From assembly GCA_000004985.1 (NCBI GenBank), contig GG738875.1: a DNA stretch of 64,000 nt, one strand, 5' to 3'. The notes below the pieces were generated by a model that saw only the letters and a program-made list of their open reading frames with translations, had not been told where the DNA came from and did not search any database. Below are positions 9,801 through 63,291 of the stretch, in pieces. Made by a program: the position numbers and the translations under genes. The DNA is from Naegleria gruberi. Taxonomy: Eukaryota. Each line of letters begins with the position of its first letter. Position 1 is the first letter of the stretch.

Positions 9801-12800
9801 AAAGCCTTTTGACATTCTTCCAAACTGATTTTAAGAGCTGGCAACATCTTCAACATTTCATTATCAAAGCAGAAACGAATAACGTTTGGAGTAGCAACAG
9901 CCTTTTGTAAAATCTTGACCCAGTTCTTATCAATGTGACTGAATTTCTTGTCTTCATGTGGCAATTGTCTCTTAATATCACCACTTGCAAATACAGGCTC
10001 AAGATAAAGCCATTGAGCTTGAACTTGTCTCCAAGCTTGAATATTTTCAGTTACAGATGTAAGCTTTTGCATCCATCCAGAGGCTAATTCTCTGAATGGT
10101 TCCAAATACTTTGAACCCATGATACCACCCAAGTTCATTTGGGCTTCTTCAAGTTGTTCCATCAATTCTTGAGTTTCAGCACCCTTCAAGATAATAGGAC
10201 CACGGTGTTTGTATTCAGCGAAAGACAATTCTCTATCCTTCCATTCTTCAGTAAGCTTTTTCAACTTGTCTTCAATTTCTAATTCCTTACGAGCTGAGTT
10301 ACAAACATCTTCGACTTCTTCCTTACATGCAAGTAAATTAGCTTCCAAAATGTCTTTAAGTTTAAACACATCGTCTTCCTTCTTAAATTGCTTCTTTGTG
10401 AGGGCTTCCAAACGTTCCCAATGTCTTTCTCTCATAGATGGATTCTTAAGTTGATCCAACAATGGTTGTAATTCTAAGAAATCTTCAATAGTTTGTCTCA
10501 AATTTTCATAAGCCTCAATGCCTTTTGCAGCTTTCTTTAAAGAATTACATTTAGTAGCAAACTTGTTGACTTCATCAGTAATGGCTTGGAAATCAAGTTC
10601 AGACCACAATAACTCTCCATAACTACCAACTTGTTTCTTAACCTTAATGTATAAATCGTACAAGGTGTCGTATAACTTTAACATCTTTTTCATCTTTGCA
10701 AGATCTGGGTATTCTTGCATTGGCAATCCGAATAATTTTTCACCTTCTCTGTACACTTCATATTTTCTTTCTCTTTCAGCATACAGTCTTTGGAATTTGT
10801 TCAGTCTTTCTCTAGCTTCTTCAGGTGCAATATCAGGTACTGCAGGCCCATTAAGTGTAAAATCTTTACAGAATTGCTCGACATCGGTTTTAAAGAGCTT
10901 TACCTCAGAAATTAATCTTGTCTTGAACCCACTTTGAACCTTAGAAATAGTTTCGTTAACTTTACTGGCCAATCTAGTCAATTTCTCCCACTTGAAAGCC
11001 AGATCGTAAACTTCATCAATTTCTTCCTTAGGAACATTTACAGAGTACTTTTTCAAAATAGAATATCTGTCAGCAATTTTAGAGAAATCATATTCAATCA
11101 TTGCTTCCCTAGATCTAATATCCATAACAGTACCCATGACAAATCTCAAGTCTTCAAGGTTTGCAATTTCTTGAGATAATCTCTTTGTAGATTCATCCAT
11201 CATTGTCAAATAGTTGTTCAATTCTTCCTTTGCACTTTCGTGAAGGTTATTGGCATATTGAACTTTCCATTGAATAACTAGCTGGAGTATGGAATTCTTC
11301 AATCCTTCTGCATCCAAAAAGAATGGACCCACAATACTTGATGTCTCCATTTGGCCAATCTCATTTTCAAGAACTGTGTATTTGTTCAACTCCTTTTCAA
11401 AATCATCAAGAGTTGGCTTCTTATCAACACATTTATCAACAAACTTTTTGTAGGCTGTTTGTTTGTCTTCCTTCCAGAGATAGCTGTACTTTTCGTATTT
11501 AGCCATAAATTGCTTAATTTCTTTTTGTAATAAAGCACAAGCTCCACTAGATGTCATTACCAGTCTAATAACATCACAGTCTCTGGATACTTCTCTGTTG
11601 AAGTGAATCTCTGGTTTGCACCTCCATGGTTGGATTGCCTTTGGAGATCCTAAAACAGATTGAACAACTCTGTCAATAGACTCTTGAATTTCTTCAAGGT
11701 TAGGTTTGAGAATTACATCAGGAGCTGCAAGTTCAAAACCAATTTTGAAAATTGGATCACCATGTGTGTCCTTTCTTGTTCTGCTTCTAAAGTAATGCAA
11801 AGACTTTACGACAGAATTCAGTAAGTTTTCTAAAATTGTTCTATGGTAAAATTCTTTAAGTCGAGTCAACAAATCTGGAGTAATTGTTAGTTTTGTTTCC
11901 TCGAATGGAAAACCAGAAATTACTTCTAAAATATCCTCTACGGCTCTTTCTATTTCAATACTCTTATTGTTGAGCTGTTCAGATAATTCTTTTGAGTATT
12001 TGTCTTGTGTATCTACAATTTGTTCAAGAGTGGAATCTTCTCTTTCAGGGAGCAAGAAAAATCCAGTATTTGATATATCCTTCAAATTTTTGTCGATTCT
12101 TCCATCGATAATATCATTAACCTTAAGTAATACATCTTCTAACTTTTCCAGTGTCTTGTGAATTCTCTTTAAATAAACTGAAATATTCATAGAAGTCCAT
12201 GAAAGAGTTGTAACACCAGGATCAATTTTCTTCTCAAGCTCGTCAATATGTGGTTCAAGTAATGGCTTTACATCATCTTTAACCATAGAAAGAATTCTTG
12301 CTCTTTCCTTCAAAACAAAGGATAACTCGTTGTAATATCCTTTGTATTTTTGTTCTTGAAGGAGAACAGTTTTACCCACATCTGGGATTTCAACTCCAAG
12401 TCTCATTAACCATTTGGCTTCTCTAATGAGTTGAATTATTTCAATATCAAAGTTAACAAAGAGTCTATCTTCAACCTTAATAATCAAAGTTGCCAATAAA
12501 CCGTCCTTTGCCTTTTCAACATATTTCTTCCAAGCTTCCAACCATGAGGTTTCAAACTTGATTAAACCCATCAAAACCTTGTTGTATGTTTTGATAATCT
12601 TCTTTGATTCCTTACTTTGCATAATAGTTGGGATTTGTTGGAATTTAGTCATTGGCTCCTCTATTCTTCTCATAAGTTGTCTACACCAAATAACTTTTCC
12701 GGCAACGGGTGGGGCATTTCTTACCAATGGTGGTTTAACTTTGAATTTTTCATATAGCTTTTGAATGTTATCAAGTTGGAATCCATAGTTGTGGAAAATT

Positions 12801-50958: not shown

Positions 50959-51016
50959 GTGTTAATAAATTTATTCCTAGTAAATTGTTTAAATCAAAAT
51001 TGTTGGTGAAAACTGG

Positions 51017-53033
51017 TTAAACACTTTTAGTTTCTTCCTCTTCTGTTTCATATCTTCTCTTCAAAATTGATTTAGGTACAGTTAGGGAAAGAATAAAGGT
51101 GAATATACACACTCCAGCACACACCCAAAAACTAATCTTGTCGACGAGTGGAACTTTTCCAATCCAAGAGTTTGGATTTGATTCAGTGATACTTTCAGCC
51201 CAATTCAATCCAACACTAAGCAATACTCCTCCAATGAATGGACCTGAAGCCCAACCTATTGAAGCAGTAATATGTGCTAATCCAGTTGTGCTTCCAATGT
51301 GTTCCGAAGATGGGGCTGAATTGTTGACAAGTAAGAATTGAGAGGTATAGGCCATTTCTTGTGCGCATGATTTGATAAAGATACAAAAAGTGGCAAAAAT
51401 AAAAACAACCCAAGGATTCCACTCATATTGGACTAGTTCAGTACTGAATGGAAAAACTATTACGTCAATGATGTAAACTATCAAGCCAATTCTGAAGAGC
51501 CATAAGAATCCAAGCTTATCAGATAATTTTGGATAAATAATTAACATTATTAGTGAAGTAACGCCACCAATAGAAAGCATTAATCCAATTTGTGACGAAT
51601 CCAAAGCTAGACCTCTCTTTTGAATTGAATTACTGGCAAAAACTAACAAATATTAATATCATTATAACAAAAAACTTACTTGGAACCATTTCGTCCATAA
51701 TATTAGTAGCAAGACCAAGGAAGAGATACAACAAAGCAACCTTAACAACTATAGAATCTTTCAACAGATAAAAAAGACTCAAGTTTGGTTTTTCCTTATT
51801 AGCAGCTACCTTTGTCTCAATTGAAGATGTTTCCTCGACAGAATTTGAGTCCTCTTCCAATAAATTATCCTTAGTACTGTAGGCGTCTAAGTTTGTCGTG
51901 GAAGCACTTATCATTTCAATAGATGCTTCTTTTTCCTCTTCCACAATTTTCTTTTTTCTTATTCCAACCTTTACAAGAAACCAATTTACAATATCAAATC
52001 TATTCTTTAAAGATTCTTTCATGAAAAATATTGTGCAAATAATTGAAATAATATTCATAATGACTGGAATGGAGAGCGGTAGCACGTACGGATTAGTGTT
52101 AAAGAAATTATAGAGCCATGTTTCTTTACCTCCAAAAAGGAAAGGCCATTTTTCGGCAGGTTTAGACAACCAACCTCCCATTCCAGGAGAAACGATGTTA
52201 CTCACAGCCCAAATACAACTAATAAGCACAAAGGCTTTTTCCTGATTGCTCGAATTGGTAATATCAATAGTGAATGACTTGTAAATTGGAACGTTAGCAT
52301 TCAAAGCTCCGTGAATTGTTCTAACAACTAGGGCAAACCAAAAATTCTTTGAAAATGCAAATAATGACAAAAAGATTACATTCACAACTAAGCCCGATAA
52401 CAATAAGGGTTTTCTTCCTAAATGATCACTCGATCTTGAAATGAACCAATTGGAAATTAATTGAGCAACTGAATAGGCAGATGCCAAAATACCAACCAGT
52501 AATCCAACTCTTTCCTCTGGTATTTCCAATTCATCATGATTGATAATTGTACCATTTCCAATCAATGAACTATTTACACTAAATAATTTCGAATCAAATT
52601 GTTTCGAATATAAATAACTTTTTGGCAAAATTGCAAAACTATTAAATCCCAAGTTGTAACTTGTTGTAGTAGTATTATAACTCAGTGTTCCATTATTTAG
52701 ACGTGCTTCTTGTTGTTCAAACAACAGAAAATCTCTCACCATAAATGGCACAACAGGATAGAGAATTGAATAACCAACAGCCTCAGCAATGATAATTATC
52801 GATATCATTATCATGGCCATTTTAGGCAATGGTGTCACTTCTGGTTTCACTTCCTCTTGATTACTTTCCAAATTTTGTTCCTGTTGCTCTTCTACTTGTT
52901 GATTGTTATCATCAATAATTCCTTCATTATCATCATCATCTGCCAATCGGATGATATTCACCGAAGAAGATAACGAGTGAGTATTGTCATCATCCATTTC
53001 TGGTGGTGAGTCTTGTTGTGGGTGATGACTCAT
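51017..53033 (-). CDS. Major facilitator superfamily transporter. Model: join(complement(51680..53033),complement(51017..51642)), about 659 aa
   Basis: Acidic/Gln-rich N-terminus, then about 12 TM helices with MFS-like loop motifs (HLGRKPLLLSGLV). A large cytoplasmic loop is present. The two track ORFs are joined by a 37-nt intron (51643..51679, GTAAGTTTTTTG...TTGTTAG), giving ...IMDEMVPS|IFASNSIQKRG... in frame. Confidence 0.7.
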
Positions 53034-53741
53034 TTTTTTTCAGTGCGCCTAGTTTTCTAGAAGGATTGAAATATGCTGTTTGTTTCAAATATTCGTTGAA
53101 GATTATAAAGAATAATAAATGGTAATTACAATAAATGGTGAAGAGGTTGCGGCAACGTGCTACGAAAGATATTTTGTTGGTGTGTTGTTTTTTTGTTATC
53201 GGAGGATTTTTGATTTACAGTAGTAATTGGTTTGTGTTGCTTAATAAAAACGTGGGGAAAAAAAGACTGAATAATTGGCTTTCTTGCCTGTATAAGAGTA
53301 AAAGACTACAGCACCACAGGTTCCCAAGTTGTCTCCAACCTCAGTACTGATGTGGCTCTACGATGCTTAACTTCTCAAATCGGACGGGATGAGGTGCATT
53401 CATCGTGATATGGCCGTAGCCATTCATTATATGAAAATTATGATATTGAACGAGTACAGAAATTATGTTTATATTTTATTTCAGTCATCGTTGGATGAAA
53501 TATTTGAATGATACGAAAGGTGAAAGTGTTAATGAAAATCCACCTTAATCCTCATTCAAGTTTCATTCAAATCCAACATTGTAAACTGGCAAACTAGCTT
53601 CCACTTTTCCAATCACCTTCCAATAACACTCCATTTTTAATTTGAGCCACTAAATGATTTAAATTGCCTCCGGAGCTCAAGAATACTCCACACAAAAAAA
53701 CAGCAACAATATTCAACATTCTTCATACAAAAGAATACAAA

Positions 53742-54530
53742 ATGCTTTTCCAACAACCTGTACATACTGGCAGCAATTTTACCATTCCATTTGATGGAAC
53801 CATTGAAAAATTCACCTCTACCTTTCCAATATCTTTAGTGAATAGAGTACACCCCGATCAATTTCAATCTACATTAGAAAAATGTAATTTAGTGATGAAG
53901 AAGCATATGGACAAGATTAAAGAGAGTGATAAGAAAGTGTTGTGGGTTATGTTGGCATTCATTGGCTTGATGATATTGTTAATTTTATTTCCAACTCTTT
54001 TCGTTACTGTCATTATTCCTGTTGGTGATTCTGATGCTTGGATTCCTGCAGTTTTCATTCCAATATTTGCATGTATTCCAATGATTGGAATTATTATTTA
54101 TTCATCTCGTAGAATGCAACAAATCAAAGCCATGCATGTAGAATGTAAGAAGGAAGTTGAAGAGCTATTGGCACAAGAGAATTCAATGTACTTCCAATTT
54201 GGTGTTCAATGGATCTTGAGATATGACGGTATTGAAGCTATTGGCAAGGTCAGATATGGTGTCTATAGGCATTTAAATACCATGCCAAGCTTGGAGATTT
54301 TGACCAATCAAGCAATGTATATGGTGCAACAACCTAATGTTATGGTGCAAGGTAGTTCTGACATGATGCCAATGTATCAACAACAACAAGCTATTTATGT
54401 AGTGCCACCAACTAGTCAACCACAACAACCAACAGTTTATGAACAAGAACCACACAGTGTAACTTATCAACAAGTGAATCAATACCAAAAGGAAAATGAT
54501 AATCAACCACTGTTAGGTAATAGAGTGTAA
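53742..54530 (+). CDS. Hypothetical membrane protein with two predicted TM helices and a Gln-rich C-terminus, 262 aa
   Basis: The first ATG (caaaATGctt) in an ORF whose track start 53664 is a TTG. Two adjacent hydrophobic helices (VLWVMLAFIGLMILLILFPTLFVTVIIPV and IPAVFIPIFACIPMIGIIIY). Q/P/Y-rich tail. Confidence 0.4.
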   Translation: MLFQQPVHTGSNFTIPFDGTIEKFTSTFPISLVNRVHPDQFQSTLEKCNLVMKKHMDKIKESDKKVLWVMLAFIGLMILLILFPTLFVTVIIPVGDSDAWIPAVFIPIFACIPMIGIIIYSSRRMQQIKAMHVECKKEVEELLAQENSMYFQFGVQWILRYDGIEAIGKVRYGVYRHLNTMPSLEILTNQAMYMVQQPNVMVQGSSDMMPMYQQQQAIYVVPPTSQPQQPTVYEQEPHSVTYQQVNQYQKENDNQPLLGNRV

Positions 54531-54729
54531 ATTATTTTTGTAAATAAAAATTGTAAATATTAAAAATAATACAATTTTAATATTCCATAAACTCAGAAAG
54601 GGCAAGAAAGGCTCAGAAAGTTCATCATGCTAAACCTTGCTATGTTTTTAATTAAGGTGGCTGGATACAAAATTATTTAAGTGGTAATAATTGTTATTGT
54701 GGTTGTTAGGAAGAATTCCTCAACAAAAA

Positions 54730-55098
54730 ATGCAACAACTTGTGGAGGGGCAGATTTGGACATATCATCATCGTTCTAAAGATGATTCTACATCCCGATT
54801 CACAATTTATAAAATTGACCAGATGGGTGATCATGATGTAGTGCATATCAAAATTTCTGGTGTTCGATTTGCTGGAAAAAAGATGCAAATACAACACATG
54901 CCTTTTACGAGAGAATCTATAGAGCAGAGTGTTATAGAATTGGTTGGAAATATTGATGACTTGAAGGATGAACATTTTACAGATGGATATGAAAATTGGA
55001 AGAAGGAAAGTTTGGAAGGAAGAGCAGGTGCTTGGACTATGAATGTGGATAAAGCAATTGATTTATTGGAGAAGGCTACTACGGGAGCTGATGAATAA
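54730..55098 (+). CDS. Hypothetical small soluble protein, 122 aa
   Basis: First ATG (caacaaaaaATGcaa) inside the track ORF, which starts at TTG 54691. No recognisable domain. Confidence 0.35.
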   Translation: MQQLVEGQIWTYHHRSKDDSTSRFTIYKIDQMGDHDVVHIKISGVRFAGKKMQIQHMPFTRESIEQSVIELVGNIDDLKDEHFTDGYENWKKESLEGRAGAWTMNVDKAIDLLEKATTGADE

Positions 55099-55177
55099 TT
55101 AGATTAGCCTTTGTCAAGCCTCTATTGTAAATATAATTAAAAAATTAAATTATTATTAAATTTGGAAAAATTGGAAT

Positions 55178-56983
55178 TTATTTTACAACCAAGTATTTAA
55201 TCTCTTTTGGAAGAGTAAAGTTTGAAACACCAGTATTAATTGCTCGGATAGATGTGATTTTTGGACAATTTTTGGAAATGCTTAATATGCTATTATTTGT
55301 GATTGGATTTTCACTTAAATCAATCGTCTCCAATAGTGGTAGCTCTTTAGAAATTGCTTCAACAAATTTGTCATTAATATCTTGATTGATAAGTGTGAGA
55401 GTTTTCAAATTTTTGAGTTGGGATAAACGTTCAACACTGAAAATTGGAGTTCTGAAAATATTCAAATCCACCAAATCACACATGACATCTGTGGACACTT
55501 CATGAACTGCTTCATAAGTCCCAAGTTTAAGCTTTTTCAAGGAGGCTATAGTGAGAAGCTCACTAAAACTGTCACCTATTCCGCATGAGGTGATTTCTGC
55601 TGTTTTAATAGGCATTCCTGCAAGATATTTAAGCATTCCTGGCTTGATTTTTTCATGATCCAAGCTAATTGTACTCAACTTTGAACAGGAACTCAAATTT
55701 TCAAAGAATTCTCTTTGAGTATCGTCTGGAGGGCTATCGTAAAGTGTTGTATATCCATGAAGGGAGCCACCATTTTCTCCTTTAAGTATTGATTTGACAG
55801 TTCTAATATTTGGCCAATTTTTAAGAGCTTTTGAAAAGCGGAAAATTGAGGTGACACTTGTTTGAATATCTAAAGTGGTTAATAAAGAAGAATTAGCAGA
55901 AAATTCTGTAAAGTCTTCATCTTTTCCTGCACTGTGACCTCTCCATCTGAATATTCTCAACTTTGGAAATTTAAGTTTACAGAATCTGTTCATTTCACAC
56001 ATATCACTTGAAGGAACTTGAAGGATTGTAACATCTTCCAAATAAGGTGCCATCACTTCCAAGGTTGAAACCAAAACTTCTGAAGGTAATTGTCTTACAT
56101 TAAGACTTGTGATGTTTTGTACAGGTAATAGTTTAAGAGTTTTCTTTGTTTGGGTCAATGCTTGTTGGGAATCTGTGACAGTGGTATCATGTAATAATTT
56201 AACATATGGGACCTTCATTGCAATCTTTGCACCATTGGCTGCCAAGCATTGAGTCATCCTCAAAAGTTCAGATCTATGATACATTTTAGAACCATCCAAC
56301 TCCAATCTTCTAAAGAGAAACTTTGGAGAGTCTCCCTGTCCAGATCTTGTAAATTTACCAAAATACAATTGATTAAACTTTCTAACATTGGAACCACATG
56401 ATTGATCGAATAATCCTCCATAATAGTCCAAAATAATGAGCAACACTTCACTAGGAAGTTTACAAACAAGTCTGTTCAATTCATCTTCCAATTGTTGAGC
56501 TTTAGGAAGTGGTGTTTTTGGTTTCACTGGAACATTGGCAGGTTGTTGCTTACTAACAGGTGGAGCCTTTGTTGTTGATGAGGATGTGGTTGTACTACCA
56601 GTTTTGGTCCTTAATGCTGAAGATGTTTTTGATATGAATGTTGCCTTTGGTGATGAAGATAGACTTGATGGTTTGGAACTTGATGAAACCTTACTAGTAG
56701 TAGTTGTCGCCACAGGTTTGGTTGCACTTGGTAAAGATGATGATGTCTTGCCGGCATTACTTGTTATCTTTGTTACATTACAGCTTGAAGTTGTTGTTGT
56801 TGTGGTTACTGCCTTTGGAGTAGGACTGTTTGACAATGATCTATTATTACTCGTTCCCGAAGAGAATGTCTTTGTACTTGAAGTGGTTGTTGTTGTGCTG
56901 CTGCTAGAAGTTTTGCTTGTTGTTGTTTTTGAGGGAATCTTTGAGGGGGTAGTTGTTGAGGGAGTGGATTTGGTGAGGGCCAT
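55178..56983 (-). CDS. F-box / leucine-rich-repeat protein with a mucin-like Ser/Thr-rich N-terminal region of about 190 aa, 601 aa
   Basis: After the S/T-rich tract comes an F-box-like LPSEVLLIILDY, then degenerate LRRs (LxxLxL, C-terminal ...LETIDLSENPITNNSILSISKNCPKITSI). Confidence 0.5.
   Translation of the reverse strand: MALTKSTPSTTTPSKIPSKTTTSKTSSSSTTTTTSSTKTFSSGTSNNRSLSNSPTPKAVTTTTTTSSCNVTKITSNAGKTSSSLPSATKPVATTTTSKVSSSSKPSSLSSSPKATFISKTSSALRTKTGSTTTSSSTTKAPPVSKQQPANVPVKPKTPLPKAQQLEDELNRLVCKLPSEVLLIILDYYGGLFDQSCGSNVRKFNQLYFGKFTRSGQGDSPKFLFRRLELDGSKMYHRSELLRMTQCLAANGAKIAMKVPYVKLLHDTTVTDSQQALTQTKKTLKLLPVQNITSLNVRQLPSEVLVSTLEVMAPYLEDVTILQVPSSDMCEMNRFCKLKFPKLRIFRWRGHSAGKDEDFTEFSANSSLLTTLDIQTSVTSIFRFSKALKNWPNIRTVKSILKGENGGSLHGYTTLYDSPPDDTQREFFENLSSCSKLSTISLDHEKIKPGMLKYLAGMPIKTAEITSCGIGDSFSELLTIASLKKLKLGTYEAVHEVSTDVMCDLVDLNIFRTPIFSVERLSQLKNLKTLTLINQDINDKFVEAISKELPLLETIDLSENPITNNSILSISKNCPKITSIRAINTGVSNFTLPKEIKYLVVK
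56440..56983. repeat. Low-complexity Ser/Thr-coding tract (acn/tcn repeats)
   Basis: Encodes TTTSKTSSSSTTTTT... on the minus strand. Generates a spurious poly-Val ORF on the plus strand (56535..57008). Confidence 0.5.
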
Positions 56984-57113
56984 TTTTTTTAAAGTTTCAC
57001 CTCTCTGACCCCACCAAAAGAAATCTTATAGAGTTAGAAGTTGACCCGCCTTAATAATTACTATTGATGTTTCACAGTGCGAGCTTTTCTATAAAAATGG
57101 TAAAGAGTTAATT

Positions 57114-58097
57114 TCAATTATTCCATTCGAAATGTCCAAAGAGTACTCTTTCGCCATTGATTGAGTCCACGATTTGTTGCCAAACTGGTTTGGAATTGTG
57201 AGGGCTGGTCTGAGGATGAAAGTGAGTATCTAATTGGAAAATGTAATAGTAAATACAAATGAAATGAAGTAAAATTCCACCAACTGAAAACAAGTGCCAA
57301 ATGGCATGTGAGAAGGGAATTATTCCATCACCATTCAAGAAGTAAATTCCACCTGAGAAGAAAAATCCTCCACCAAATAATGCAAAATAAGCTTCCAAAG
57401 GGATATGAATAAACATTGAAGAGGGAATGGCTACTAGAGCTACCCAACCCATAATATTAAAAAGAGTACCATTCGAAACGAATGTAATCATTCTTCCTTC
57501 AGAAAATGATTTAGTAAGCCCACAAAATGCCAAACACCAAACAAAAATTGTTAAAAACTTTCCATACATATTCTCATTTCCCAATTCCAAAATCATCAAG
57601 AATGGTGTGTAAGTGGCTGCTATAAAGATATAAATTGTTGCATAATCTACAATTCTGAACCAGTATGTTTTGTGTGAAAACTTTCCAAACACCAAACACA
57701 TGACATGATACAAAGTTGACACGAAAAACAATGTAAACAGTGTCATGCAGTAGAGTATGGATGAAATTCGTTCCTCAATACTATTCACCACATGTTCATT
57801 TGTTAAGAATAAATAAACAAAAATGAATAATGGAATACCATGAGTGAGAATGTTTGCCGTTTCCTCAATTTTTGATGGTTCATAATCTTCCACATTCAAA
57901 CTATCAGGAAATTCATTCATGAATATTTTACACATCGGGCAACAAGTCACTGGTTTTTGTTTGTAAATAATTTCATCCACCAATTTGAACTGTTTCTTTT
58001 CTGATGCTGTTTCATGATTATTTTCTGTATTTTCGTCATGATGACAACCACTGTGATGATGACAAGGGGAAGGGTCACCCTTTTTTCGTTCTCTCAT
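57114..58097 (-). CDS. PAQR / hemolysin-III family seven-TM receptor, 327 aa
   Basis: Seven hydrophobic helices. Conserved HAIWHLFSV motif before the last helix. The N-terminal tail is His/Cys-rich (CHHHSGCHHDEN). Confidence 0.7.
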   Translation of the reverse strand: MRERKKGDPSPCHHHSGCHHDENTENNHETASEKKQFKLVDEIIYKQKPVTCCPMCKIFMNEFPDSLNVEDYEPSKIEETANILTHGIPLFIFVYLFLTNEHVVNSIEERISSILYCMTLFTLFFVSTLYHVMCLVFGKFSHKTYWFRIVDYATIYIFIAATYTPFLMILELGNENMYGKFLTIFVWCLAFCGLTKSFSEGRMITFVSNGTLFNIMGWVALVAIPSSMFIHIPLEAYFALFGGGFFFSGGIYFLNGDGIIPFSHAIWHLFSVGGILLHFICIYYYIFQLDTHFHPQTSPHNSKPVWQQIVDSINGERVLFGHFEWNN

Positions 58098-58184
58098 TTT
58101 TTTATTAGATTATAATTAATAAATTAAATATATTGAATTTATTTGAATATTACATAATTTTTCAAAGAATACCTAGAGTCAACC

Positions 58185-58703
58185 CTATTTTCTCTTTGGT
58201 GGTTGAGATGCTAAAATCTTTTCAACAGTAAAATCAATTTCCCATCTTTCTAACATTCTTTCAATAGCAACGAGTGGTACACCATGCTTATTTCTCTTTG
58301 CTAATTCTTGTGCATTCTTAGCCCAAGGAGTAGTTGGTTCTGTAATTTCTACCACATAAGAATTGGCCTTTGCAGCTACAACATATGGTTTAGCTTCCCA
58401 CTTTTGTGTATTGGTATTATCGATTATTATAGGAGTGGTTCCATTCTTCATGGCATCGGAAGCTCTTTTCTGATTCCATTGATGGGCCTTTCCAAGTTGT
58501 GTAGCATCAAAATTATAATTTCCAGTCTGTGGATCCACAAAATAATCATCAGTGGAAAAGATATGATCTTTATATCCTGTTGTATAATCAATTCCGTGAT
58601 TTTTCATAATTTCTGATGCAAGAGTACTCTTTCCACTTCCAGAAATTCCTCTCAACAAGATCATTGTTTTACCATTAGATGATGATGAATTAGTTGCTGA
58701 CAT
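58185..58703 (-). CDS. P-loop kinase of the AAA_33 / N4BP2L / PNK-like family, about 172 aa
   Basis: Walker A LLRGISGSGKSTLA. Aspartate-rich DxD region (FSTDDYFVD). Start chosen at caaaaaaaATGtca (58703, MSATNSSS...). The track start 58772 (MQFNKIY...) is an upstream in-frame alternative. Confidence 0.55.
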   Translation of the reverse strand: MSATNSSSSNGKTMILLRGISGSGKSTLASEIMKNHGIDYTTGYKDHIFSTDDYFVDPQTGNYNFDATQLGKAHQWNQKRASDAMKNGTTPIIIDNTNTQKWEAKPYVVAAKANSYVVEITEPTTPWAKNAQELAKRNKHGVPLVAIERMLERWEIDFTVEKILASQPPKRK

Positions 58704-59123
58704 TTTTTTTGATTTTGTTTGATGTTGAAATTTGTGTAAAAATAGATTTTTATAAATTTTGTTGAATTGCATACTTCAATATTGTAAACTGGTTCAACAA
58801 TTTATTTCAGTTTATTTTGAAGATGAAGCATTAATGATTTTGGTGGAAGTGAATCATACTGTACCCTTGATTATTGGATTGATTATGATATGGTTCAAAC
58901 GACTTGTTTGAAGAATGAAGATAAATCAAAATGTGAAAAACAAGTTAATTGGCGATTTGGTTGGTGGTATTTTCAATACCTGATCAACTCTCCGAATGAG
59001 CAGGTAGGTTCATATTAAATTTTTGTTACTTTACTTATTTTACAAAATACTAATTTTATCAATTTCACAAACATGGAAAGAGTTCATCGAACGAAATTAG
59101 CGTTAAAAATCCTTCAGAAAAAA

Positions 59124-59726
59124 ATGGCTCAATACCACCAACCGACCTTGAAGAGTTTCAATAAGAAAATTTCTTTCGAAAATATTGATAATATTAAATT
59201 ACATATTGCTAGTAGTCCATTCACAGTTTCACCTGGCGATGAGGAGAAACACAACTTGGTTCCAATCTTTCAGTCAGTAATTTCATCCTTCCTATTTTCC
59301 ATTTGTTGCTTATTTGCTCATCTTTCCCCTGGTAATTTCTTTGATGAAACTGAAACTCTAATGAATGCTCTTTGTTCAGTGTTTGTGTTGAGTTTCGGAT
59401 TCTGTATGTACGTTATGATCAATGCATCGTGTCTTCAGATGGTAAGGGATGGATTTGTTAGTCTTCCACTAGTTAGCATTCATCCAAAGGCTAATCAATT
59501 ACTCATTTGGTTATCTAGAATTTTCAAAGTGTTTTTGGGATTGATTGTTTTGTTCAATGAGATTAAGAAGGTGTTCAACATTGAGGGAATAGTGCTTGAG
59601 ATGGAGTTACTCTCCTATATCATTCTATTGAGTCACATGTTTTGTGCCTTATTATTATTGAATATATATTTTTGTTTCTCTATTCAATCAAGAGAAAGAA
59701 ACTACTCTTCCGAAAGTTGTGTTTAA
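59124..59726 (+). CDS. Hypothetical small multi-pass membrane protein, paralogue A, about 200 aa
   Basis: Start aaaaATGGCTCAATACCAC is shared with paralogue B. About 4 hydrophobic helices. Shares the C-terminal block VLFNEIKKVFNIEGIVLEMELLSYIILL with paralogue B. The track ORF begins 51 nt upstream at another ATG (59073). Confidence 0.5.
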   Translation: MAQYHQPTLKSFNKKISFENIDNIKLHIASSPFTVSPGDEEKHNLVPIFQSVISSFLFSICCLFAHLSPGNFFDETETLMNALCSVFVLSFGFCMYVMINASCLQMVRDGFVSLPLVSIHPKANQLLIWLSRIFKVFLGLIVLFNEIKKVFNIEGIVLEMELLSYIILLSHMFCALLLLNIYFCFSIQSRERNYSSESCV

Positions 59727-59839
59727 TAATAATAAAGAAAATTTGATCCTTATTATCGATAATTATTATTCATTCCTTTCATTATATGAATCAATAACAT
59801 ATTGAGAAGAGTTTCATTGAGCCTTGCAAATAGTAAAAA

Positions 59840-60409
59840 ATGGCTCAATACTACTACAAGTCTAAGGATGGTAATGATCACAACGAATTACTTGTTTCAT
59901 TAGAGGAGAAACAGAAAGTTAATCCATTCTTTGAAATCATTCGTGAGAGTTTATTATACTTTATATTCTCAGTGAGTTGCATGTTTGTTCTACTTTCCTC
60001 AAGTGAATTCTTCAGTGGCTCAAAGTATTTTTATGCTCCTTATTCTAATTTATTATTCTCTTTAATAATGATGATTATCGGGCTTGGCATATATGAAACT
60101 CTCAAATTTAGTTGTTTGTTCATCCTTTCGCAAGAGTACATCTTCTTCTCCAATAATTCAGTTGATTTTCCATCCTCCTGCTTTGCAATATTTTCCATCT
60201 CAAGCTATTTCAAAGTAATCGTTGGTTTTGCTGTTCTATTTGGAGAAATCAAGAAGGCTTTCGAAATTAATGAACTTGCATTATTCTTTAAGATTTGTGA
60301 CAATATCGTTCTGTGGAATCATGTAGCATGTACACTTGTTCTATTGGAATTATTTCTAATTTTCAAATTCAAAAAGTCAAAATTCCTCCCATCACATGAT
60401 TTAGTTTGA
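59840..60409 (+). CDS. Hypothetical small multi-pass membrane protein, paralogue B, 189 aa
   Basis: Start aaaaATGGCTCAATACTAC. Same architecture as paralogue A, with the conserved block VLFGEIKKAFEINELALFFKICDNIVL. It lies 113 bp downstream of paralogue A on the same strand. Confidence 0.5.
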   Translation: MAQYYYKSKDGNDHNELLVSLEEKQKVNPFFEIIRESLLYFIFSVSCMFVLLSSSEFFSGSKYFYAPYSNLLFSLIMMIIGLGIYETLKFSCLFILSQEYIFFSNNSVDFPSSCFAIFSISSYFKVIVGFAVLFGEIKKAFEINELALFFKICDNIVLWNHVACTLVLLELFLIFKFKKSKFLPSHDLV

Positions 60410-60479
60410 GTAAGATTCATAGTTGCTTGCATTATCAAATGGCAATAAATCCTCTATAGGTATGAAGTTAAGAACTTCT

Positions 60480-61313
60480 TTATTTTCTCAAAGTTACAAC
60501 ATTTCCAGTGCAAACGAATTGAATTTGACCATTTTGTGGTTGATATTCTGTTTCAATTCTGGCATGGATCTTACTCAACCATTCCTTCTCCAAAATGGGA
60601 TCTATTTGTGGTCCGAATTTTCTCTTCACCATTTCTGAGAATTGAGTGCTTGATTTCACTATTTCCATCATAACTTCGAGTGGACACTCAAATTCTTTGG
60701 TTACCTGTTCAATATCTATGTGAGAAAAACCAGCTTCCTTGCACAAGGTTTCGAAATGTTGTGGATCCTTGAGTGAAAACATGGCTCCTTGTGGTCCTCT
60801 TTCTAAATCAAGAGTATCATATGCAGCATTTAATGGAATTCTCAAGGGGAATGCCTCTGTCCATGAGTTTACCAAGGCAATACCTTGTTGTTGCATTACT
60901 CTGTGAATTTCCTTCAACCCTCTTAATATATCCTTGTATAACATAATTCCCATATTGGAATAGACAACGTCAAATGAATTGTCTTCATATTTCAAATCTT
61001 GTCCATCCATGATATGAAATTTCAAGGAAGAAACATTTGAAGATGTGTTAGAAATCTTGGAATTTGCTCCTTGAATGTAATCTTCTGAAATATCAATACC
61101 ATCAATACTCAACTTGAAATCCGTTCCGTTTAAAATAGTCTCATTCTCAAACTTGAAAGGCAACAATCCAGTTCCAGTTCCAATATCCAAAATCCTAACA
61201 TTTCTGTCCTTTGTTGAGTTGAAATAAAGAGTGGTGGATCGTTGAATAAGATCATCTGCAAAGAATTCTTGCACAACTCTGGTGAGTTCCATAAACTTGA
61301 TTTTTTGATTCAT
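60480..61313 (-). CDS. Class I SAM-dependent methyltransferase, 277 aa
   Basis: Motif I VRILDIGTGTG. Post-I acidic residue (IDGIDISEDY). Motif II/III region FDVVYSNMGI. Confidence 0.7.
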   Translation of the reverse strand: MNQKIKFMELTRVVQEFFADDLIQRSTTLYFNSTKDRNVRILDIGTGTGLLPFKFENETILNGTDFKLSIDGIDISEDYIQGANSKISNTSSNVSSLKFHIMDGQDLKYEDNSFDVVYSNMGIMLYKDILRGLKEIHRVMQQQGIALVNSWTEAFPLRIPLNAAYDTLDLERGPQGAMFSLKDPQHFETLCKEAGFSHIDIEQVTKEFECPLEVMMEIVKSSTQFSEMVKRKFGPQIDPILEKEWLSKIHARIETEYQPQNGQIQFVCTGNVVTLRK

Positions 61314-61863
61314 ATCTAATAGCTTGTTTTTTATGAGTGTGTGATTCAGTTAACTGGTGAATTTATTTTCTTCTCAAATGAGGACATGCTCTTAAATATT
61401 GCCCTGTCCTTTGTTGCGTGTGGACTTTTTCAAGATTATATTGAGCTTTACCGCTTTTCATAACCAACATGAATGCATGTTAAGGGTCAGTATAATAAAT
61501 ATTCATCCAAATTCATGTATTGAGAACGGGCTTATTAAATGCATTATTTTTTACAATAAATAATCTCAATAATTCAATCAAAATTAATTGTAAGTGCCAA
61601 ATTTGGTAATTATTTTAAAGCCTGTTAAATTTCAATTCCCCTCCTTGAAGCTCCACTCGAATAATTCTCCAACGACACAAAACTTACTCAAAAAACATTG
61701 CAAAAAACATCTACCCCATTCCTCTATTAATTACATCCAATATCTTTCCACTTTTTCAAACAATTATCTATTGGTTGTTGTTTTTTCTCCTTTTAAAGAC
61801 TCACTATTTCCTTGTTGTGTTCGGACGAATTAGCCCGATTGTTTTTTCTCAAACTCTAAAAAA
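61314..61863. promoter_or_regulatory. Divergent intergenic region between the methyltransferase (minus) and COX15 (plus)
   Basis: A 550-bp spacer between two divergent start codons. The plus-strand ATG is preceded by ctaaaaaa. Confidence 0.3.
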
Positions 61864-63291
61864 ATGCTCAAACAAAACCTGAGACATGTATTATCGCCAT
61901 CATCGAGGAAGACATTGATTCAAAAGATCAATTGTTCTTCTTCAAGTAGTAGACCATCGGCTATGATGGTTGTTTTCAACAGCAAGAATCAAGAAATTGT
62001 CTCTACAAGAAATTTCTCATCATCTAGTATTCAAAATTTGCTCAATGTTAGCAAGAGTAGAAAGGATGAAGTTTTTCCAGTATTGAATATGAATAGTAAT
62101 ACCATCAATGTTTATCCATCATCATTAAAGCCTAGCATAACCTCTTCATCATCATATAATTACTCGACCACAGTTTTTAATCATCCAGAAGAACAACAAA
62201 AATTTGAAGAAGAAATTCCAGGACGTAAAGCTGTTTTAATATGGCTCGGAACATTGAGTTTCCTTGTTTTTACAATTGTTATTGTTGGTGGTTTAACTAG
62301 ACTGGAAGAAGGTGGTCTTTCAATGGTTGATTGGTCATTCATGGGTTCACTTCCTCCAATCACACAAAAGGAATGGGAAGAAGAATTTGAAAAGTACAAA
62401 CAATTCCCTGAATATAAGAAGAAGAATGAAGGAATGACTGTTGAGGAATTTAAATACATCTTTTACTATGAATATTACCATCGTATGCTGGGAAGATTGA
62501 TTGGTGCTGTTTACACAATTCCAGCTATTGCATTTGCTGCTAAGGGATTTTTCTCTGGTAAGAGAAGAGTCATGTCACCTTGGACAGTTCTTGCTATAGG
62601 AAGTGTCATTGGTTTCCAAGGTCTTTTGGGTTGGTATATGGTTAAGAGTGGTCTCGATGAAAATCATGAACTCATGAAGAAGTATAATAGCATTCCTCGT
62701 GTATCTCAATATCGTTTGGCTTCTCACTTGTGTACTGCCTTTGTAATTTATGCCATGACTTTGTGGAAGAGTTTCGATTTGGCTACCAAGAATAAGACTG
62801 TTGAAACCTTTGCTGGTAGCTCAATTTTCAAGATGGTTGCCCCAATTTTCTTCTCCCTTGTTTTCTTGACTGCTGCTTCTGGTGCTTTTGTTGCTGGTAT
62901 GGATGCTGGTTTGGTTTACAATGAATTCCCACTCATGGGTGGTGCTGTTGTTCCAAGTGACATCATGGCTATTGAACCATGGTATAAGAATTTCTTTGAA
63001 AATGCCACTACTGTCCAATTCCAACACAGATGGTTGGCAACCTTTGTAGCAACAGCTATTGCTGCTTTCTGCTTCTATTTCAAGAAGGGTGACAAGGGTA
63101 AACAATTGCCTGCTACTGTTAAGAAGTCACTCAATTATTTGCTTGCTGTTGTTACTGCCCAATACACTCTTGGTATCACTACTTTATTGACCTATGTTCC
63201 AACATCAGTTGCCTCAGCTCACCAAGCTGGTTCATTGACTTTGTTCACATTTGCTTTATGGATGGCTCACGTTGCTAAGAGAATTAGATAA
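61864..63291 (+). CDS. COX15: Heme A synthase COX15 (mitochondrial inner membrane), 475 aa
   Basis: N-terminal Ser-rich presequence. The stretch GGLTRLEEGGLSMVDWSFMGSLPP...EFKYIFYYEYYHRMLGR...GLLGWYMVKSGLDE...IPRVSQYRLASHL...LTAASGAFVAGMDAGLVYNEFPLMG...VQFQHRW...THQAGSL aligns along its length with human and yeast COX15. Confidence 0.9.
   Translation: MLKQNLRHVLSPSSRKTLIQKINCSSSSSRPSAMMVVFNSKNQEIVSTRNFSSSSIQNLLNVSKSRKDEVFPVLNMNSNTINVYPSSLKPSITSSSSYNYSTTVFNHPEEQQKFEEEIPGRKAVLIWLGTLSFLVFTIVIVGGLTRLEEGGLSMVDWSFMGSLPPITQKEWEEEFEKYKQFPEYKKKNEGMTVEEFKYIFYYEYYHRMLGRLIGAVYTIPAIAFAAKGFFSGKRRVMSPWTVLAIGSVIGFQGLLGWYMVKSGLDENHELMKKYNSIPRVSQYRLASHLCTAFVIYAMTLWKSFDLATKNKTVETFAGSSIFKMVAPIFFSLVFLTAASGAFVAGMDAGLVYNEFPLMGGAVVPSDIMAIEPWYKNFFENATTVQFQHRWLATFVATAIAAFCFYFKKGDKGKQLPATVKKSLNYLLAVVTAQYTLGITTLLTYVPTSVASAHQAGSLTLFTFALWMAHVAKRIR

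What the first reader, a model, noticed from the sequence alone, without database searches (positions are those of the whole stretch)
59073..60409. Tandem pair of paralogous small membrane proteins with a conserved start context and no known family
Two head-to-tail genes 113 bp apart encode proteins of about 200 and 189 aa with about 4 hydrophobic helices. They share the identical start context AAAAATGGCTCAATAC (MAQY...) and a C-terminal block VLF(N/G)EIKK(V/A)F(N/E)I. They are otherwise only 25-30% identical, so the duplication is old and the family is under selection. No domain was recognised, making this a lineage-specific membrane protein family candidate.
Basis: seen in the sequence. Interest (0 to 1): 0.55.

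Follow-up and report, generated by a model that had tools for sequence, protein, structure and literature searches.

The report
Orphan membrane-protein gene pair in Naegleria
Two neighbouring genes of the amoeba Naegleria gruberi encode related small four-helix membrane proteins with no detectable relatives in any other organism, and they lie in a 3.1-kb stretch that other Naegleria lack; this is a real but fairly ordinary species-restricted gene family.

Summary
Window 59124-59726 (A, 200 aa) and 59840-60409 (B, 189 aa) are head-to-tail ORFs 113 bp apart. They are clearly homologous: BLASTP E=2e-18, 30% identity over 160 aa, Smith-Waterman z=22. Each has four hydrophobic helices, the shared 17-nt start AAAAAATGGCTCAATAC, and the VLFxEIKKxFxI block.

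The window is Naegleria gruberi nuclear DNA. A is the annotated 'predicted protein' NAEGRDRAFT_68872. B appears to be missing from the reference proteome.

Pfam, NCBIfam and PDB sequence searches gave no hit. An exhaustive HMMER profile search of 1.84 billion proteins returned only A and a 98%-identical copy of B from a metagenome. That library does hold N. fowleri, Willaertia and Acrasis proteins.

In N. fowleri and in a third Naegleria-like contig, the flanking genes (AAA_33 kinase-like and COX15) are directly adjacent. N. gruberi carries an extra 3.1-kb segment there holding A, B and a SAM methyltransferase.

So this is a two-member, lineage-restricted family of 4-TM proteins, predicted N-in/C-in, most likely gained in the N. 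gruberi lineage and then duplicated in tandem. Biochemical function could not be determined. Species-specific orphans are common in Naegleria, so interest is modest.

The parts
59124..59726 (+). Gene A: 200-aa protein with 4 predicted TM helices. It is the N. gruberi 'predicted protein' NAEGRDRAFT_68872 / XP_002675866.1 / D2VJ15. An upstream in-frame ATG at 59073 would add 17 aa.
   Evidence: The ORF is. It is 100% identical to P0002. Hydropathy segments lie at about 46-67, 78-104, 125-145 and 156-187. AF2 helices are 46-67, 77-108, 121-150 and 154-193. The codon-usage log-likelihood is positive only in this frame.
59840..60409 (+). Gene B: 189-aa paralogue with 4 predicted TM helices, not found in the reference proteome.
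   Evidence: The ORF is. The exact sequence is not in the collection. The only hit is P0001, 98% identical, on a 747-bp metagenome contig. Four hydrophobic segments. AF2 helices are 29-56, 66-103, 112-141 and 147-179. Between strains there are 4 synonymous and 4 nonsynonymous differences, pN/pS about 0.25.
59119..59135 (+). Start context of A: AAAAAATGGCTCAATAC (A-rich leader plus the codons for M-A-Q-Y).
   Evidence: It matches 59835-59851 exactly over 17 nt and is the longest shared word between the genes.
59835..59851 (+). Start context of B: the identical 17-mer, preceded by an in-frame TAA.
59547..59582 (+). Conserved block VLFNEIKKVFNI of A: the end of TM3 plus the TM3-TM4 connecting loop.
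   Evidence: The alignment is. The same amino acids are partly encoded by different codons in B (ttg/cta, ttc/ttt, gag/gaa, att/atc).
60233..60268 (+). Conserved block VLFGEIKKAFEI of B.
59727..59839 (+). 113-bp spacer between A and B. It carries AATAAA 4 nt after A's stop codon. A second AATAAA lies 34 nt after B's stop codon.
   Evidence: The signals are read directly from the sequence; their use as poly(A) signals is inferred.
58773..61863 (.). 3.09-kb segment present in N. gruberi between the AAA_33 gene and COX15. It holds A, B and a class-I SAM methyltransferase (60480-61313, minus strand). It is absent from N. fowleri and from the Naegleria-like contig L004.

Best explanation
A and B are two real, separately translated protein-coding genes of Naegleria gruberi. 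They form a two-member, taxonomically restricted (orphan) family of small polytopic membrane proteins.

Shown: they are homologous; both keep long open frames in AT-rich DNA; each has four hydrophobic helices; and they have no detectable relative in any other organism.

Also shown: they lie, together with a methyltransferase gene, in a 3.1-kb segment that separates two genes (AAA_33 kinase-like and COX15). Those two genes are immediate neighbours in two other Naegleria lineages.

Inferred: the segment was gained in the N. gruberi lineage after its split from N. fowleri. The membrane-protein gene was either born there or diverged beyond recognition, and it then duplicated in tandem.

Inferred from charge distribution (positive-inside rule): both termini and the TM2-TM3 loop face the cytosol. 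The short acidic TM1-TM2 loop and the conserved EIKKxFxI loop between TM3 and TM4 face the lumen or exterior.

Conservation sits in the helices (F/S/C in TM1, G/Y/S-C-L in TM2, F-K-V..G..V-L-F in TM3, H..C in TM4) and in that loop, and there is no enzyme-like motif. The most likely way of working is therefore as a compact four-helix membrane bundle acting as a structural or adaptor subunit, possibly as an A/B hetero-oligomer, rather than as an enzyme or large-pore transporter. This functional part is a guess.
For: Homology.

Organism and identity of A.

Coding signal:
- The codon-usage log-likelihood is positive only in the proposed frames (A 0.116, B 0.070 bits per codon; the five other frames range from -0.30 to -0.94). 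This is similar to the neighbouring HlyIII membrane protein at 0.10.
- The probability of no stop in 189-200 codons at this base composition is about 1e-6.
- Nucleotide identity by codon position is 0.41/0.68/0.43, against 0.27/0.31/0.28 expected.
- Of the 58 identical residues, 25 use different codons.
- B is intact in a second strain, with pN/pS about 0.25.

No relatives:
- Pfam, NCBIfam and a PDB profile search gave nothing.
- The word-indexed search of 5.8e9 proteins returned only self or near-self.
- The exhaustive HMMER profile search of 1.84e9 representatives returned only A and B.
- JGI metagenome and IMG/VR scans gave nothing.
- Control: the same database returns COX15 from N. fowleri, Willaertia magna and Acrasis kona.

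Synteny:
- In N. fowleri, AAA_33 (8965-9744, minus) lies 257 bp from COX15 (10001-11494, plus) in L002. In L004, AAA_33 (1-318, minus) lies next to COX15 (570-1925, plus).
- The downstream acetyltransferase is conserved in all three.
- No A, B or methyltransferase homologue occurs in the 21-kb N. fowleri locus.

Polarity: COX15 quartet sites place L004 outside (gruberi, fowleri), 12 vs 5 vs 5. A single insertion in the gruberi lineage is therefore more parsimonious than two deletions.

Topology: K+R counts are 9 (N-terminus, loop 2, C-terminus) against 2-4 (loops 1 and 3) in both proteins.

Separate genes: an in-frame stop lies directly before B's ATG, the start context is identical, and AATAAA follows each stop codon.
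Against: - No expression or proteomic evidence could be obtained, and no paper mentions the gene.
- B is not annotated in the reference.
- dN/dS between A and B (0.39-0.83) is not far below 1, and dS is saturated. The between-strain test rests on 8 substitutions (Fisher p=0.056).
- The codon-usage signal is weak compared with typical genes of the window (0.39 +/- 0.18).
- Polarity of the insertion rests on a one-gene quartet count. The outgroups (Willaertia, Acrasis, a JGI heterolobosean contig) lack the AAA_33-COX15 adjacency altogether, so deletion from an ancestor is not excluded.
- Unannotated homologues in other Naegleria genomes could not be searched at DNA level beyond the syntenic loci.
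- Structure models are of low confidence (pLDDT 43-44), so fold and function remain open.
Confidence: 0.75

Rival explanations
1. De novo birth. The ancestral A/B gene arose from T-rich non-coding DNA in the N. gruberi lineage, following the 'TM-first' model in which thymine-rich sequence readily encodes hydrophobic helices. It then duplicated. This is a specific version of the origin step, not of the present function.
For: There are no homologues anywhere. The coding strand is T-rich (0.39-0.40 against 0.31 in typical genes of the window; 43-44% T at codon position 2), and the segment's plus strand is 37.5% T. The codon adaptation is weak, and the locus is lineage-specific. The model itself is described in PMC7005711.
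Against: No orthologous non-coding precursor can be shown, because the whole segment is missing from N. fowleri and L004. A well-organised 4-TM protein of 190-200 aa with conserved polar residues is large for a young de novo gene. T-richness is expected of any TM protein.
Confidence: 0.25
2. An old family diverged beyond recognition. A and B are fast-evolving members of a known tetraspan superfamily (for example MARVEL-like or claudin/PMP22-like), or of an older heterolobosean family located elsewhere in other genomes.
For: The generic 4-TM architecture with short loops is shared by many families. The paralogues themselves have fallen to 30% identity, so orthologues across the deep Naegleria divergence (COX15 only 72% identical) could be undetectable. 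B shows that small genes of this kind escape annotation.
Against: The profile search of 1.84e9 proteins gave nothing at E<=0.001. Pfam gave no hit even at E<=1, and the PDB profile search gave nothing. Nothing lies at the syntenic position in two other Naegleria lineages.
Confidence: 0.15
3. A horizontally acquired cassette. The 3.1-kb A-B-methyltransferase segment entered the N. gruberi lineage from an unsampled donor (giant virus, bacterium or other protist) as a functional module.
For: Three genes are inserted together between conserved neighbours. The Naegleria pangenome paper discusses many genes with homologues in other kingdoms and in viruses (PMC9928731).
Against: GC content (0.32-0.33) is like the rest of the window, and the methyltransferase has typical N. 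gruberi codon usage (0.347). There are no close bacterial or archaeal relatives of the methyltransferase and no viral relatives of A/B. There are no flanking repeats or target-site duplications.
Confidence: 0.07
4. Not functional genes: chance ORFs, or a gene plus a decaying pseudogene copy.
For: There is no expression evidence, B is unannotated, the codon-usage signal is weak, and dN/dS reaches 0.83 by one method.
Against: Two ORFs of 189-200 codons stay open despite dS of about 1 or more. The chance of this is about 1e-6 each. Conservation is strongest at codon position 2 and in discrete blocks. B is intact in a second strain, with the same stop codon.
Confidence: 0.05

Closest known systems
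Species-specific orphan genes of Naegleria, as catalogued in comparative genomics (PMC8296547, PMC9928731)
   Same: There is no homologue outside the species and no domain, and the gene is annotated only as 'predicted protein'. Such genes number in the hundreds per species. For example, 458 N. fowleri orthogroups have no N. gruberi homologue, and 80% of those have no homologue anywhere.
   Different: Here the gene has a tandem paralogue, a clear 4-TM architecture, and a datable position inside an insertion between conserved neighbours.
De novo 'TM-first' emerging membrane proteins of budding yeast (Vakirlis et al. 2020, PMC7005711)
   Same: The coding sequence is T-rich and encodes hydrophobic helices, the genes are taxonomically restricted, and codon adaptation is weak.
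   Different: The yeast cases are mostly short, with one or two predicted TM segments and identifiable non-coding orthologous sequence. A and B are 190-200 aa with four helices, are already duplicated, and have no precursor sequence identified.
Small tetraspan membrane-protein families (MARVEL PF01284, claudin/PMP22, tetraspanin)
   Same: Four TM helices, about 150-250 aa, and predicted cytosolic N- and C-termini.
   Different: There is no sequence match. The extracytosolic loops are only about 10-19 residues and lack the cysteine or W-GLW-C-C motifs of tetraspanins and claudins. The characteristic block here is EIKKxFxI in the TM3-TM4 loop.

Membership tests
Any Pfam-A / NCBIfam family | A score above the curated threshold against the family HMM. 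| tested here: not met
   A and B have no Pfam match at E<=1, no NCBIfam match at E<=10, and no PDB chain match with the A+B profile at E<=10.
Tetraspanin | A large second extracellular loop (about 70-130 aa) between TM3 and TM4 with a CCG motif and further conserved cysteines. | tested here: not met
   The TM3-TM4 connection is about 10 aa in A (EIKKVFNIEG) and about 19 aa in B. There is no CCG. The definition of the family is from general knowledge.
Claudin / PMP22 / EMP | A first extracellular loop of about 50 aa with the W-GLW-C-C signature. | tested here: not met
   The TM1-TM2 loop is 10-15 aa (SPGNFFDETE in A, SEFFSGSKYFYAPYS in B) with no W or C. There is no Pfam hit.
MARVEL domain (PF01284) | A match to the four-helix M-shaped domain HMM, or a matching fold. 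| tested here: inconclusive
   The HMM gives no hit at E<=1. The fold comparison is not meaningful because the models have pLDDT 43-44.
Taxonomically restricted (orphan) gene | No detectable homologue outside a narrow lineage, despite sensitive searches of databases that contain the sister lineages. | tested here: met
   The exhaustive profile search returned only A and B. The control showing sister taxa present in the database is. The syntenic loci lack it.
De novo originated gene | An orthologous non-coding sequence at the syntenic position in outgroups, showing the ancestral non-genic state. | tested here: inconclusive
   The syntenic position in N. fowleri and L004 is a gap of about 250 bp between AAA_33 and COX15. 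The whole 3.1-kb segment is absent there, so no precursor can be aligned.
Integral membrane protein with 4 TM helices | Four hydrophobic segments of at least 19 residues with mean Kyte-Doolittle hydropathy of at least 1.6, at conserved positions in both paralogues. | tested here: met
   (four segments each), the alignment, and the AF2 secondary structure. Experimental membrane insertion was not tested.

The most novel reading that the evidence does not exclude
A/B is a de novo born four-helix membrane protein family in a deep-branching protist. It arose from T-rich DNA inside a lineage-specific insertion between AAA_33 and COX15, was then fixed and duplicated in tandem, and both copies were retained under selection. 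That would make it a datable, tractable example of de novo membrane-protein birth outside yeast, animals and plants.
Probability: 0.2. Interest if true: 0.5.

Novelty: new member of a known kind. Interest (0 to 1): 0.25.

Why it matters
The family has no described relatives, so it adds one small entry to the large set of Naegleria orphan genes. Three practical points follow.

1. It identifies an apparently unannotated N. gruberi gene (B).
2. It shows that the pair sits in a well-delimited lineage-specific insertion. This makes it a convenient case for asking how new membrane proteins arise and are kept (de novo birth versus rapid divergence) once more Naegleria genomes are compared.
3. The pair is a candidate marker for the N. 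gruberi lineage in metagenomes, since a 98.7%-identical contig was found in an ENA metagenome.

It does not bear on any long-standing question, and nothing suggests an unusual mechanism.

Tried and rejected
- Pfam, NCBIfam and PDB sequence searches gave no hits.
- Word-indexed searches with A and with B returned only self or near-self. The exhaustive profile search returned only A and B.
- JGI metagenome and IMG/VR scans with peptide patterns gave nothing.
None encodes a relative by tblastn at E<=1.
- tblastn found no third copy in the 64-kb window. Two other near-matches to the start 16-mer are chance: one lies inside a mitochondrial processing peptidase gene, the other at the start of a deoxyhypusine-synthase-like gene.
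- The two AlphaFold2 runs gave pLDDT 43.3 and 43.8, so only secondary structure is usable. Foldseek against the PDB gave nothing below E=0.3, only generic four-helix bundles such as FAT domains, and I treat these as meaningless.
- An internal 2+2 helix duplication was rejected (z=2.3 and 0.8).
- A single 8-TM gene joined by an intron was rejected. B has its own conserved start with a stop codon directly upstream, and A ends with TAA followed by AATAAA.
- There are no flanking repeats or target-site duplications around the 3.1-kb segment.
- The methyltransferase gave no close bacterial or archaeal hits and only generic class-I SAM methyltransferase matches in the PDB.
- Literature searches for the locus tag and accessions found nothing.
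- Outgroup loci (Willaertia, Acrasis, a JGI contig) lack the AAA_33-COX15 adjacency, so they cannot polarise the insertion.
Full report
**1. The observation**

The window carries two plus-strand ORFs.
- The first runs 59073-59726 (217 aa from the first ATG). It starts at 59124 if it begins with MAQY, giving 200 aa.
- The second runs 59840-60409 (189 aa).
- The gap between stop and start is 113 bp.
- B has an in-frame TAA immediately upstream of its ATG, so MAQY is its only possible start.
- By homology, and by the public gene model, A also starts at MAQY.

The two proteins are clearly homologous.
- They align with BLASTP E=2e-18, 30% identity and 51% positives over 160 residues.
- The Smith-Waterman score is 198, against 39.9 +/- 7.1 for 1000 shuffles (z=22).
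- The N-terminal and C-terminal halves are each significant on their own (z=11.9 and 15.2). There is no internal 2+2 duplication.

- An exact 17-nt match, AAAAAATGGCTCAATAC, sits at both starts. It is the longest word the two genes share; the next longest is 11 nt.
- The block VLFNEIKKVFNI in A corresponds to VLFGEIKKAFEI in B.

Each protein has four hydrophobic segments. AlphaFold2 predicts four long helices at the same positions.

**2. Source organism and annotation**

Protein A is 100% identical to the Naegleria gruberi 'predicted protein' NAEGRDRAFT_68872 (XP_002675866.1, D2VJ15) on a 396-kb scaffold. The window is therefore N. gruberi nuclear DNA, with GC of about 0.30-0.37.

Protein B's exact sequence is not in the 15-billion-protein collection. 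Its only relative there is P0001, 98% identical, from a 747-bp ENA metagenome contig (ERZ929261).
- That contig is 98.7% identical to the window at the nucleotide level.
- It has the same TGA stop. Its 202-aa product is a read-through gene call.

B therefore seems to be missing from the reference annotation. I found no paper that mentions the locus tag or accessions.

**3. Are they real genes?**

- At the base composition of this segment, the chance that 189-200 codons contain no stop is about 1e-6. Both copies have stayed open even though synonymous divergence between them is near saturation (dS 0.97-1.76).
- A codon-usage log-likelihood trained on the 14 long ORFs of the window is positive only in the proposed frames (A 0.116, B 0.070 bits per codon). 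It is negative in the five other frames.
- That signal is weaker than in typical genes (0.39 +/- 0.18) but equals that of the neighbouring HlyIII membrane protein (0.10).
- Nucleotide identity between A and B is 0.41, 0.68 and 0.43 at codon positions 1, 2 and 3. The values expected from composition are 0.27, 0.31 and 0.28. This is the pattern expected when hydrophobicity class is conserved.
- Of the 58 identical residues, 25 use different codons.
- Between the window and the metagenome strain, B has 4 synonymous and 4 nonsynonymous changes. This gives pN/pS of about 0.25, with Fisher p=0.056.
- dN/dS between A and B is 0.39-0.83 depending on the method. It is below 1 but unreliable.

Taken together, both copies are maintained as coding sequence, though under rather loose constraint. 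Each stop codon is followed by AATAAA (4 nt after A's stop, 34 nt after B's). With the conserved independent start, this argues for two transcription and translation units, not one gene. No expression data were available to me.

**4. Relatives elsewhere**

All of the following searches found nothing beyond A and B themselves:
- Pfam at E<=1, NCBIfam at E<=10, and a PDB profile search at E<=10.
- The exhaustive HMMER search with a profile of A+B against 1.84 billion representative proteins, which returned only A and B.
- Peptide-pattern scans of JGI metagenomes and IMG/VR.
- A tblastn search for a third copy in the window.

As a control, a COX15 search in the same protein collection returns N. 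fowleri (72% identity), Willaertia magna, Acrasis kona and environmental heteroloboseans. Sister lineages are therefore represented. The caveat is that B shows small genes of this type can go unannotated, and I could not run tblastn on whole Naegleria genomes.

**5. Genomic context**

In N. gruberi the local gene order is:
- HlyIII (57114-58097, minus)
- AAA_33 kinase-like (58185-58772, minus)
- A (plus)
- B (plus)
- class-I SAM methyltransferase (60480-61313, minus)
- COX15 (61864-63291, plus)
- an acetyltransferase (from about 63577)

In N. fowleri (VFQX01000044.1, locus L002), the AAA_33 orthologue (72% identity) lies 257 bp from COX15. The same acetyltransferase follows.

A 3.5-kb ENA contig from a third Naegleria-like lineage (L004) shows the same direct AAA_33-COX15-acetyltransferase order. 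Its COX15 is 71-74% identical to both species.

Neither locus contains any A, B or methyltransferase homologue, by tblastn or tblastx. N. gruberi therefore has an extra 3.09-kb segment (58773-61863) carrying three genes.

Willaertia, Acrasis and a JGI heterolobosean contig lack the AAA_33-COX15 adjacency, so they cannot polarise the change. Quartet-informative COX15 sites place L004 outside (gruberi, fowleri), 12 against 5 and 5 with Willaertia as outgroup. That makes one insertion in the gruberi lineage more parsimonious than two independent deletions. This is a weak, single-gene inference.

The segment has ordinary GC content and no flanking repeats. Its methyltransferase has normal N. gruberi codon usage and no close bacterial relatives. 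A recent horizontal transfer is therefore not favoured.

**6. What the proteins look like and how they probably work**

The architecture of A is:
- an N-terminal hydrophilic tail of about 45 aa (35 aa in B), with a conserved EEK...P.F motif just before TM1
- TM1
- a short acidic loop (SPGNFFDETE)
- TM2
- a loop of 17-20 aa
- TM3
- the conserved EIKKxFxI connector
- TM4
- a short basic C-terminus

K+R counts are 9 on the N-terminus/loop 2/C-terminus side, against 2-4 on the other side, in both proteins. By the positive-inside rule (general knowledge), this predicts N-in/C-in.

The invariant residues lie mainly in the helices: F56, F58, S59 and C62 in TM1; G92, Y96, S102, C103 and L104 in TM2; F134, K135, V136, G139, V142, L143 and F144 in TM3; H171 and C174 in TM4. 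There is no signal peptide-like N-terminus, no enzyme motif and no large loop.

My best guess is a compact four-helix membrane bundle serving as a structural or adaptor subunit, possibly as an A/B hetero-oligomer. This is inference only. The AlphaFold models have pLDDT 43-44, and Foldseek gave no match below E=0.3.

**7. Comparison with known things**

The pair fails the defining features of tetraspanins (no large EC2 loop, no CCG) and of claudin/PMP22 (no long ECL1, no W-GLW-C-C). It has no HMM match to MARVEL or to any other Pfam family.

It fits the category of taxonomically restricted orphan genes, which are abundant in Naegleria. For example, 458 N. fowleri orthogroups have no N. gruberi homologue, 80% of these have no homologue anywhere, and most are expressed (PMC8296547). 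The pangenome study lists 944 N. fowleri-specific and 742 N. lovaniensis-specific genes (PMC9928731).

The T-rich coding strand (T 0.39-0.40 against 0.31) and the weak codon adaptation recall the 'TM-first' route of de novo gene birth described in yeast (PMC7005711). No non-coding precursor can be shown, however, and a 4-TM protein of 200 aa is large for that model.

**8. Verdict**

- The family has two members and is restricted to the N. gruberi lineage.
- It sits inside a lineage-specific three-gene insertion.
- One member is unannotated.

It is a genuine but ordinary orphan family. Function is unknown beyond 'small 4-TM membrane protein'. Interest is modest (0.25). The most novel reading not excluded is de novo birth followed by tandem duplication (probability about 0.2).

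Noticed in passing
window 59840-60409 (+): Gene B is not present in the N. gruberi reference proteome held by the databases. The only record is a 98%-identical metagenome gene call, so it is probably an unannotated gene.
   Followed up: yes
window 61864-63291 (+): The COX15 ORF is 475 aa with a Ser-rich N-terminal extension. The reference N. gruberi model (P0003) has only 400 aa (84% coverage). The N. fowleri orthologue aligns from residue 13, so the reference model is probably truncated at its N-terminus.
   Followed up: partly
window 50959-58184 vs L002 541-8964: Between the syntenic adh_short and AAA_33 genes, N. gruberi and N. fowleri share no detectable genes. N. gruberi has an MFS transporter, three ORFs without a Pfam family above threshold, and HlyIII. 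N. fowleri has DUF4116, ParcG, Ras and Roc genes. This is a local hot spot of gene-content turnover next to the A/B insertion.
   Followed up: partly
window 51017-53033 (-): Two overlapping minus-strand ORFs (51630-53033 and 51017-51649) both match MFS_1. They are probably one transporter gene split by an intron or a frameshift.
   Followed up: no
L001 (ENA ERZ929261, contig k127_311980) 16-624: A metagenome contig 98.7% identical to window 59825-60571 shows a close N. gruberi relative in that sample. Its 202-aa gene call reads through the conserved TGA stop, a genetic-code artefact of the gene caller.
   Followed up: yes
window 59119-59135 and 59835-59851: The 17-nt exact identity covers 6 untranslated A's plus the first four codons, whereas the following 20-35 residues of the N-terminal tails are barely alignable (z=1.96). 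Whether this reflects a translation-initiation or N-terminal-processing constraint, a short gene-conversion tract, or chance is unexplained.
   Followed up: partly
window 59698-59726 and 60380-60409: Both proteins end in a hydrophobic valine preceded by S-x (A: ...ESCV) or D-x (B: ...HDLV), and S196 and V200 are invariant in the alignment. This resembles C-terminal PDZ-type ligand motifs, but that is only a resemblance recalled from general knowledge.
   Followed up: no
window 57114-58097 (-): The HlyIII/AdipoR-like protein has a His/Cys-rich N-terminal stretch (PCHHHSGCHHDENTENNHE) ahead of its 7-TM domain.
   Followed up: no
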